From Escherichia coli (GTDB lineage: Bacteria; Pseudomonadota; Gammaproteobacteria; Enterobacterales; Enterobacteriaceae), in assembly GCF_003334815.1 (NCBI RefSeq), contig NZ_QOWO01000114.1: 870 nt of DNA, one strand, 5' to 3'. The position numbers were made by a program, and so were the translations under genes. Below the pieces are notes generated by a model. It did no database searches and was not told the DNA's origin. It was given only the letters and a program-made list of their open reading frames with translations. This document shows positions 1 to 870 of the stretch, piece by piece. Every line of letters starts with the position of its first letter. Position 1 is the stretch's first letter.

Positions 1-26
1 TGTAGATTCAATTGGTCAACGCAACA
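1..26. repeat. Left terminal inverted repeat (IRL) of IS30
   Basis: Seen in sequence: the 5' terminus TGTAGATTCAATTGGTCAACGCAACA is the IS30 left end as I recall it. The right-end partner (ending ...GATTGAATCTACA in the reference) is outside the window, so the inverted-repeat relationship cannot be shown here. The 26-bp extent is taken from the literature, not measured. Confidence 0.8.
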
Positions 27-49
27 GTTATGTGAAAACATGGGGTTGC

Positions 50-54
50 GGAGG
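50..54 (+). promoter_or_regulatory. Shine-Dalgarno / ribosome-binding site for the transposase gene
   Basis: Seen in sequence: GGAGG at 50-54, 8 nt upstream of the ATG at 63 (spacer TTTTTTGA). An in-frame TGA at 60-62 closes the frame immediately upstream, so ATG 63 is the first possible start. Confidence 0.65.
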
Positions 55-62
55 TTTTTTGA

Positions 63-870
63 ATGAGACGAACATTTACAGCAGAGGAAAAAGCCTCTGT
101 TTTTGAACTATGGAAGAACGGAACAGGCTTCAGTGAAATAGCGAATATCCTGGGTTCAAAACCCGGAACGATCTTCACTATGTTAAGGGATACTGGCGGC
201 ATAAAACCCCATGAGCATAAGCGGGCTGTAGCTCACCTGACACTGTCTGAGCGCGAGGAGATACGAGCTGGTTTGTCAGCCAAAATGAGCATTCGTGCGA
301 TAGCTACTGCGCTGAATCGCAGTCCTTCGACGATCTCACGTGAAGTTCAGCGTAATCGGGGCAGACGCTATTACAAAGCTGTTGATGCTAATAACCGAGC
401 CAACAGAATGGCGAAAAGGCCAAAACCGTGCTTACTGGATCAAAATTTACCATTGCGAAAGCTTGTTCTGGAAAAGCTGGAGATGAAATGGTCTCCAGAG
501 CAAATATCAGGATGGTTAAGGCGAACAAAACCACGTCAAAAAACGCTGCGAATATCACCTGAGACAATTTATAAAACGCTGTACTTTCGTAGCCGTGAAG
601 CGCTACACCACCTGAATATACAGCATCTGCGACGGTCGCATAGCCTTCGCCATGGCAGGCGTCATACCCGCAAAGGCGAAAGAGGTACGATTAACATAGT
701 GAACGGAACACCAATTCACGAACGTTCCCGAAATATCGATAACAGACGCTCTCTGGGGCATTGGGAGGGCGATTTAGTCTCAGGTACAAAAAACTCTCAT
801 ATAGCCACACTTGTAGACCGAAAATCACGTTATACGATCATCCTTAGACTCAGGGGCAAAGATTCTGTCT
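63..870 (+). CDS. insI: IS30 transposase (DDE-type, InsI), N-terminal 269 codons; 3'-partial, continues beyond the window
   Basis: Seen in sequence: ATG at 63 with upstream SD; frame open with no stop to position 869 (870 is the first base of the next codon). Translation: MRRTFTAEEKASVFELWKNGTGFSEIANILGSKPGTIFTMLRDTGGIKPHEHKRAVAHLTLSEREEIRAGLSAKMSIRAIATALNRSPSTISREVQRNRGRRYYKAVDANNRANRMAKRPKPCLLDQNLPLRKLVLEKLEMKWSPEQISGWLRRTKPRQKTLRISPETIYKTLYFRSREALHHLNIQHLRRSHSLRHGRRHTRKGERGTINIVNGTPIHERSRNIDNRRSLGHWEGDLVSGTKNSHIATLVDRKSRYTIILRLRGKDSV. Established knowledge: this matches the IS30 transposase, which has two N-terminal HTH motifs and a C-terminal DDE core. Not in the ORF track because no stop codon falls inside the window. 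Confidence 0.93.
   Translation, partial: MRRTFTAEEKASVFELWKNGTGFSEIANILGSKPGTIFTMLRDTGGIKPHEHKRAVAHLTLSEREEIRAGLSAKMSIRAIATALNRSPSTISREVQRNRGRRYYKAVDANNRANRMAKRPKPCLLDQNLPLRKLVLEKLEMKWSPEQISGWLRRTKPRQKTLRISPETIYKTLYFRSREALHHLNIQHLRRSHSLRHGRRHTRKGERGTINIVNGTPIHERSRNIDNRRSLGHWEGDLVSGTKNSHIATLVDRKSRYTIILRLRGKDSV

What the first reader, a model, noticed from the sequence alone, without database searches (positions are those of the whole stretch)
1..870. Window is entirely a known IS30-type insertion sequence, not a novel system
The terminus, the SD-ATG arrangement and the 269-codon translation all match IS30 and its transposase InsI. No sequence in the window is left unexplained by the element. 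The suggestion that the window contains an undescribed system is not supported by what I can read.
Basis: partly seen in the sequence, partly recalled or inferred. Interest (0 to 1): 0.25.

Follow-up and report, generated by a model that had tools for sequence, protein, structure and literature searches.

The report
Left 870 bases of IS30
The window is simply the first 870 of the 1221 bases of IS30, a very common and long-studied jumping gene of E. coli and its relatives, so it is ordinary and holds no undescribed system.

Summary
The whole window aligns without gaps, at 100% identity, to sequence that RefSeq labels "IS30-like element IS30 family transposase" in many E. coli genomes. Matches occur in 3660 of 5426 complete genomes, at 8297 places. 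The window differs at 2 of 870 bases from the copy annotated "insertion sequence:IS30A / insI1" in K-12 MG1655.

Base 1 is exactly the outer end of the 26-bp left inverted repeat. This follows from the K-12 annotation and from comparing a filled with an empty agaC site. GGAGG lies at 50-54 and the ATG at 63-65. The frame stays open for 269 codons to the window's end, out of 383 in the full protein.

The protein fragment passes the curated NCBIfam IS30 transposase model (126.5 bits, cut-off 80). It has the N-terminal helix-turn-helix domain and the start of the DDE core, including the first catalytic Asp (D237).

Two qualifications apply. The window holds 71% of the element, so the right repeat, D293 and E327 lie outside it, and whether this copy is intact cannot be told. 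It is also an allele with two amino-acid differences from K-12 InsI1 (R52H, V261L).

Rfam, tRNA, promoter, terminator and repeat scans found nothing further. Novelty: already known. Interest: very low.

The parts
1..26 (+). Left terminal inverted repeat (IRL) of IS30. It is the transposase binding and cleavage site, and base 1 is the element's outer end.
   Evidence: Pairs with a 26-nt IRR, 23/26 complementary, in full copies. Same start as the K-12 'insertion sequence:IS30A' feature. Boundary confirmed by the filled versus empty agaC site. Invariant in an 89%-identical relative, where the first substitution is at base 29. 26-bp IRs are stated in PMC9333248.
27..62 (+). Untranslated leader with the Shine-Dalgarno GGAGG at 50-54, 8 nt before the ATG.
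   Evidence: Read directly from the sequence. In-frame stop TGA at 60-62.
6..64 (+). Predicted RNA hairpin pairing the IRL with the SD/AUG region. It would form only in transcripts entering from outside the element. Its function is inferred, not shown.
   Evidence: MFE -19.7 kcal/mol, z = -2.3, 5 of 200 shuffles as good. A similar fold occurs in the diverged relative L007, -18.7 kcal/mol, z = -1.8.
63..870 (+). First 269 of 383 codons of the IS30 transposase (ORF-A / InsI). The frame is open at the window's end.
   Evidence: Translation. Annotated CDS WP_001254876.1 'IS30-like element IS30 family transposase' over the identical sequence. NF033563 at 126.5 bits, cut-off 80. 65 of 87 coding substitutions against an 89% relative fall on third codon positions, and aa identity is 250/269.
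78..185 (+). First, weakly scoring helix-turn-helix region (residues 6-41).
   Evidence: Pfam HTH_38, i-Evalue 0.014. Coordinates.
234..356 (+). Second helix-turn-helix domain (residues 58-98), the strong DNA-binding domain match.
   Evidence: Pfam HTH_38 at 1.3e-18 and HTH_23 at 3.9e-4. An N-terminal HTH is a family feature (PMC2516522).
747..870 (+). Start of the DDE (rve, RNase-H-like) catalytic core. The first catalytic Asp, D237, is encoded at 771-773 (GAT). D293 and E327 lie beyond the window.
   Evidence: Pfam rve on residues 229-320, 9.8e-14. D237/D293/E327 with spacings 55 and 33, matching the family motif D-(54-61)-D-(33)-E (PMC2516522).
730..760 (-). Position reported in the literature for the IS30 antisense-RNA promoter, which down-regulates transposase translation. 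This was not verified here.
   Evidence: A review states 'bases 730-760 out of 1200' (PMC9330008). The consensus promoter scan found no site on either strand.

Best explanation
The window is bases 1-870 of insertion sequence IS30 (1221 bp), the founding member of the IS30 family. It contains the left inverted repeat, a short leader with a ribosome-binding site, and the first 269 of 383 codons of the single transposase gene.

How the element works is taken from the literature on this same element, not tested here:
- The N-terminal helix-turn-helix region of the transposase binds the 26-bp inverted repeats.
- The DDE core nicks one strand at an IS end. [quoted passage not shown]
- Host replication converts the figure-eight into a minicircle or an (IS30)2 dimer, in which IRL and IRR abut across 2 bp.
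- This junction also assembles a strong promoter for the transposase gene.
- The junction is then cut and pasted into a hot-spot sequence or next to another IS30 end, making a 2-bp target duplication (copy-out-paste-in).

Shown here: identity, boundaries, domain content, the first catalytic residue, and purifying selection on the transposase frame. Inferred from the literature: every mechanistic step.
For: Identity to annotated IS30:
- 100% identity and 100% coverage to RefSeq-annotated IS30 copies. Matches occur in 3660 of 5426 complete E. coli genomes, at 8297 places, with a median of 2 and a maximum of 23 per genome that has any.
- 868 of 870 bases identical to K-12 MG1655 'insertion sequence:IS30A' with insI1.

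Element anatomy:
- Full copies are 1221 bp with 26-bp IRs, 23/26 complementary.
- Filled versus empty agaC site defines the ends and shows 2 extra bases.
- 2-bp duplications GT and AC flank the ATCC 11775 and K-12 copies.

Protein:
- NF033563 transpos_IS30 at 126.5 bits for the fragment and 277 bits for the full protein, cut-off 80.
- Pfam HTH_38 plus rve.
- D237-55-D293-33-E327 matches the family motif (PMC2516522).
- Third-position bias, 65 of 87 substitutions, and 93% aa versus 89% nt identity to a diverged relative.

Spread and mechanism:
- Found on 1210 plasmids of Escherichia, Citrobacter, Enterobacter, Salmonella, Klebsiella and others.
- Mechanism as described in PMC9333248.
Against: Nothing contradicts the identification.

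Limits:
- The right 351 bases (IRR, D293, E327) are outside the window, so it cannot be said that this copy is complete or active.
- The ISfinder reference entry itself could not be queried. The curated K-12 annotation served in its place.
- The window allele differs from K-12 InsI1 at R52H and V261L, with unknown effect.
- The simple promoter scan detected neither the resident promoter nor the published antisense promoter.
Confidence: 0.98

Rival explanations
1. The window comes from a truncated or otherwise defective IS30 remnant rather than a complete, mobile copy. An example would be a copy cut by another IS or by a deletion downstream of base 870.
For: The window stops at base 870 of 1221, so the remainder is unseen. 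Partial copies do exist. In 505 of 4129 E. coli records the best place covers less than 80% of the window. Plasmid hits cover only 1-617, 6-719, 121-870 or 1-109. A 280-bp remnant abuts an IS1 end in phage phi456.
Against: Within the window there is no frameshift, stop or rearrangement. Most records (3624 of 4129) carry at least 80% of the window. The exact allele occurs in full 1221-bp copies with an intact 383-aa ORF. An 870-base window ending mid-gene is most simply an arbitrary cut.
Confidence: 0.1
2. The window carries, overlapping the transposase gene, an additional undescribed functional unit. Candidates are a reverse-strand small protein (8-202, 64 aa; 388-567, 59 aa; 603-761, 52 aa) or a structured RNA.
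For: These reverse-strand ORFs exist and have no internal stops in an 89% relative. The 8-202 ORF keeps its ATG there.
Against: Their amino-acid identity to the relative is 86%, 72% and 64%. That is lower than the 89% nucleotide identity and far below the 93% of the transposase frame. The 388-567 ORF also loses its start codon. Substitutions concentrate on third positions of the + frame. Rfam finds no match up to E = 1 and there are no tRNA or tmRNA genes.
Confidence: 0.02
3. The window is not IS30 itself but a distinct IS30-family element that only resembles it.
For: Diverged IS30-like copies at 75-92% identity exist on Raoultella, Enterobacter and Rahnella plasmids.
Against: The window is 99.8% identical to K-12 IS30A and 100% identical to many E. 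coli copies. That is far above any threshold used to separate IS species.
Confidence: 0.005

Closest known systems
IS30 of Escherichia coli (K-12 copies IS30A/B/C/D, transposase InsI; RefSeq WP_001254876.1 allele)
   Same: Same element. The window is 868 of 870 bases identical to K-12 IS30A and 870 of 870 to copies in ATCC 11775, S88, ML35 and many others. It has the same IRL, the same SD-ATG spacing and the same reading frame.
   Different: Two substitutions against the K-12 copy: 217 A for G (R52H) and 843 C for G (V261L). The window holds only the left 870 of 1221 bases.
IS30-like isoforms on Enterobacterales plasmids (e.g. Raoultella planticola pRp_3, Enterobacter ludwigii CM-TZ4 plasmid)
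   Same: Colinear over all 1221 bases with an identical 26-bp IRL and the same ORF layout.
   Different: 89-92% nucleotide identity. The Raoultella copy has a 1-nt insertion after base 366 that breaks the frame. The Enterobacter copy lacks bases 1-319.
Other copy-out-paste-in IS (IS911/IS3 family, IS21, IS256)
   Same: A DDE transposase with an RNase-H-like core, a circular or dimer intermediate with abutted ends, and a junction promoter (PMC9333248; PMC9330008).
   Different: IS30 has a single unframeshifted ORF, a 2-bp junction spacer and duplication, and dual target preference for hot spots and its own IRs. A weak IS21 model hit on the C-terminus, 36 bits against a cut-off of 160, is far below threshold.

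Membership tests
IS30 (the element itself) | Near-identity in nucleotide sequence to a curated IS30 copy over the whole region | tested here: met
   868/870 identical to NC_000913.3 270541-271410, annotated 'insertion sequence:IS30A'. 870/870 identical to many RefSeq copies labelled IS30. ISfinder itself was not available.
IS30 (the element itself) | 26-bp imperfect terminal inverted repeats bounding a 1221-bp element | tested here: inconclusive
   IRL is present at window 1-26. IRR lies outside the window. In full copies identical to the window the IRs are 26 nt, 23/26 complementary, and the element is 1221 bp.
IS30 (the element itself) | 2-bp target-site duplication | not testable with these tools
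   The window has no flanking DNA. In related loci there are GT/GT (L001) and AC/AC (K-12) duplications. The agaC insertion adds 2 bases but reads AT/GT.
IS30 family transposase | Score above the curated cut-off of NCBIfam NF033563 (transpos_IS30, equivalog) | tested here: met
   126.5 bits for the 269-aa fragment and 277 bits for the full 383 aa, cut-off 80.
IS30 family transposase | N-terminal helix-turn-helix DNA-binding domain | tested here: met
   Pfam HTH_38 on residues 58-98, 1.3e-18, and a weaker HTH_38 on residues 6-41, 0.014. Both lie inside the window.
IS30 family transposase | C-terminal DDE triad with spacing D-(54-61)-D-(33)-E | tested here: inconclusive
   Only D237 (window 771-773) is inside the window. 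Full copies with the same sequence have D237-55-D293-33-E327, as the family motif requires (PMC2516522).
IS30 family transposase | Transposition through IR-IR junction circles or dimers (copy-out-paste-in) | not testable with these tools
   Known from experiments on IS30 (PMC9333248). No computation here bears on it.

The most novel reading that the evidence does not exclude
The predicted hairpin at 6-64 may be functional. In transcripts entering from outside the element, it pairs the left inverted repeat with the Shine-Dalgarno and start codon. This would keep read-through transcription from flanking genes from driving transposase synthesis, as is known for some other IS. Whether this has already been described for IS30 could not be checked in the held literature.
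Probability: 0.2. Interest if true: 0.12.

Novelty: already known. Interest (0 to 1): 0.03.

Why it matters
It matters only as a clean negative. The window can be removed from any list of candidate undescribed systems. IS30 was sequenced in the 1980s, its transposition pathway has been dissected experimentally, and it is present in about two thirds of complete E. coli genomes and on more than a thousand plasmids. In practice, such copies matter because they inactivate genes (here agaC in one strain), drive rearrangements and mobilise plasmid-borne genes. None of that is new.

Tried and rejected
Scans of the window that found nothing:
- Rfam at a permissive E-value: no match.
- tRNA/tmRNA scan: none.
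- Consensus promoter and terminator scan: 0 sites on either strand, so neither the resident promoter nor the published antisense promoter at 730-760 could be confirmed.
- Repeat search: only short two-copy matches of 10-13 nt, of the size the tool itself flags as often chance.

Other searches:
- Protein Data Bank sequence search with the full transposase: no relative at E <= 0.01, so there is no solved structure to lean on.
- Phage collection: only a 36-nt overlap with the window. It proved to be a 280-bp IS30 remnant (bases 835-1114) next to an IS1 end in the P1-like phage phi456.
- Reverse-strand ORFs as extra genes: rejected, because they are less conserved than the DNA itself in an 89% relative.

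Papers that are not held in the library:
- Siguier 2014 (PMC7190074)
- Kiss 2003 (PMC299879)
- Olasz 1997 (PMC179709)

Statements on HTH function and on the antisense RNA therefore rest on secondary citations. The large protein and metagenome searches and structure prediction were deliberately not used, because the answer did not depend on them.

Full report
**Observation**

The window begins TGTAGATTCAATTGGTCAACGCAACA. It has GGAGG at 50-54 and ATG at 63-65, directly after an in-frame TGA. From base 63 it runs as one open frame of 269 codons to the window's end.

**Identity**

Megablast of the whole window against all complete E. coli genomes gave 100% identity over 870 of 870 bases in many chromosomes. 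These include the type strain ATCC 11775, S88 and ML35. Matches occur in 3660 of 5426 genomes, at 8297 places (7069 chromosomal, 1228 on plasmids), with a median of 2 and up to 23 per genome that has any. The feature under the match is always "IS30-like element IS30 family transposase".

In K-12 MG1655 the corresponding stretch is curated as "insertion sequence:IS30A" (270541-271761, 1221 bp) with insI1. The window differs from it at two bases:
- 217 A for G, giving R52H
- 843 C for G, giving V261L

Identity is therefore 99.8% in DNA and 267 of 269 in protein.

**Boundaries**

In full copies identical to the window, a 26-nt inverted repeat (23 of 26 complementary) bounds exactly 1221 bp, and its left arm is window 1-26.

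An independent check comes from strain 98-3133, where the element interrupts agaC. The intact gene in another strain reads ..GTCAT|TCTGTTC... The interrupted one reads ..GTCAT|TGTAGA...TCTACA|GT TCTGTTC... The inserted DNA therefore starts on window base 1 and adds 1221 + 2 bases.

The window has no flanking DNA on the left and stops 351 bases short of the right end.

**Protein**

- The 269-aa fragment scores 126.5 bits against the curated NCBIfam equivalog NF033563 "IS30 family transposase" (cut-off 80). The full 383-aa protein scores 277 bits.
- Pfam finds HTH_38 at residues 58-98 (1.3e-18), a weaker HTH_38 at 6-41, and the integrase core rve at 229-320 (9.8e-14).
- The catalytic triad in full copies is D237, D293 and E327, with spacings of 55 and 33 residues. 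This fits the family signature D-(54-61)-D-(33)-E quoted in PMC2516522.
- Only D237 (window 771-773) is inside the window.

**Both strands and selection**

An 89.4%-identical, colinear relative on a Raoultella planticola plasmid was fetched. Comparison with it shows:
- 65 of the 87 coding substitutions inside the window fall on third positions of the transposase frame.
- Transposase identity is 250 of 269 amino acids (93%), above the DNA identity.
- The IRL is invariant.
- The reverse-strand ORFs listed mechanically are 86%, 72% and 64% identical at the protein level, which is below the DNA identity. One of them loses its start codon.

So there is no sign of a second coding layer. Rfam, tRNA, promoter/terminator and repeat scans added nothing.

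**Mechanism (from the literature, not tested here)**

IS30 transposes by copy-out-paste-in, as follows (PMC9333248):
- Replication then yields a minicircle or an (IS30)2 dimer, with IRL and IRR abutted across 2 bp.
- The junction forms a strong promoter (Pjunc) for ORF-A.

A review places an antisense-RNA promoter at bases 730-760 (PMC9330008). That is inside the window, but the simple consensus scan does not detect it.

**Spread**

The same sequence is on 1210 plasmids of Escherichia, Citrobacter, Enterobacter, Salmonella, Klebsiella, Shigella, Raoultella and others, most of them conjugative or mobilizable. The phage collection holds only a 280-bp remnant next to an IS1 end in a P1-like phage. 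No homologue by sequence has a solved structure.

**Verdict**

The finding is correct, and the object is ordinary and already known. Two qualifications apply. The window is the left 71% of IS30, so the integrity of this copy is unknown. It is also the common non-K-12 allele, WP_001254876.1.

The only mildly open point is a predicted hairpin pairing the IRL with the ribosome-binding site. Its energy is -19.7 kcal/mol with z = -2.3, and it is kept in the diverged relative at -18.7 kcal/mol. It might shield the transposase gene from read-through transcription. The evidence is weak and the interest is low.

Noticed in passing
L001 2501-3721 (E. coli ATCC 11775) and L003 2542-3762 (K-12 MG1655 IS30A): Both copies sit at the same position inside an IS911/IS3-family element with the same 2-bp duplication (GT, equal to AC on the other strand). 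They lie in opposite orientation relative to the flanks. This fits either two independent insertions into a symmetric hot spot or an inversion of the element. I did not decide between the two.
   Followed up: partly
L002 2496-2500 and 3722-3723 (E. coli O157:H16 98-3133, agaC), empty site L005 428-436: The IS30 insertion in agaC adds two bases, but the 'duplication' is imperfect (AT on the left, GT on the right) compared with the empty site GTCAT|TCTGTTC. One possibility is that a base of the 2-bp spacer from the donor junction was retained after mismatch repair, as PMC9333248 describes. Another is a later point mutation.
   Followed up: partly
window 6-64 (+): A predicted RNA hairpin pairs the IRL (6-25) with the SD/AUG region (45-64). 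Its energy is -19.7 kcal/mol, z = -2.3. An 89% relative keeps a similar fold despite substitutions at 45, 55, 58 and 62. It could mask translation initiation in read-through transcripts.
   Followed up: partly
L004 1501-1780 (Escherichia phage phi456, Punavirus P1): A 280-bp IS30 remnant (element bases 835-1114, 98.9% identical) begins directly after a sequence that I recognise from memory as an IS1 terminal repeat (..TACACTAAATCAGTAAGTTGGCAGCATCAC). An InsB gene is annotated nearby. It is an unannotated IS30 fragment in a P1-like phage.
   Followed up: partly
L007 701-1922 (Raoultella planticola plasmid pRp_3) and L006 1201-2103 (Enterobacter ludwigii plasmid): Both are diverged IS30-like copies (89.4% and 92.0%) with no annotated feature. 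The first has a 1-nt insertion after element base 366 that breaks the transposase frame. The second lacks the first 319 bases.
   Followed up: yes
window 174-186 and 691-703: A perfect 13-nt inverted repeat, TTCACTATGTTAA / TTAACATAGTGAA, lies 504 nt apart inside the transposase gene. No function is known to me. It could be chance, and I did not test it against shuffles.
   Followed up: no
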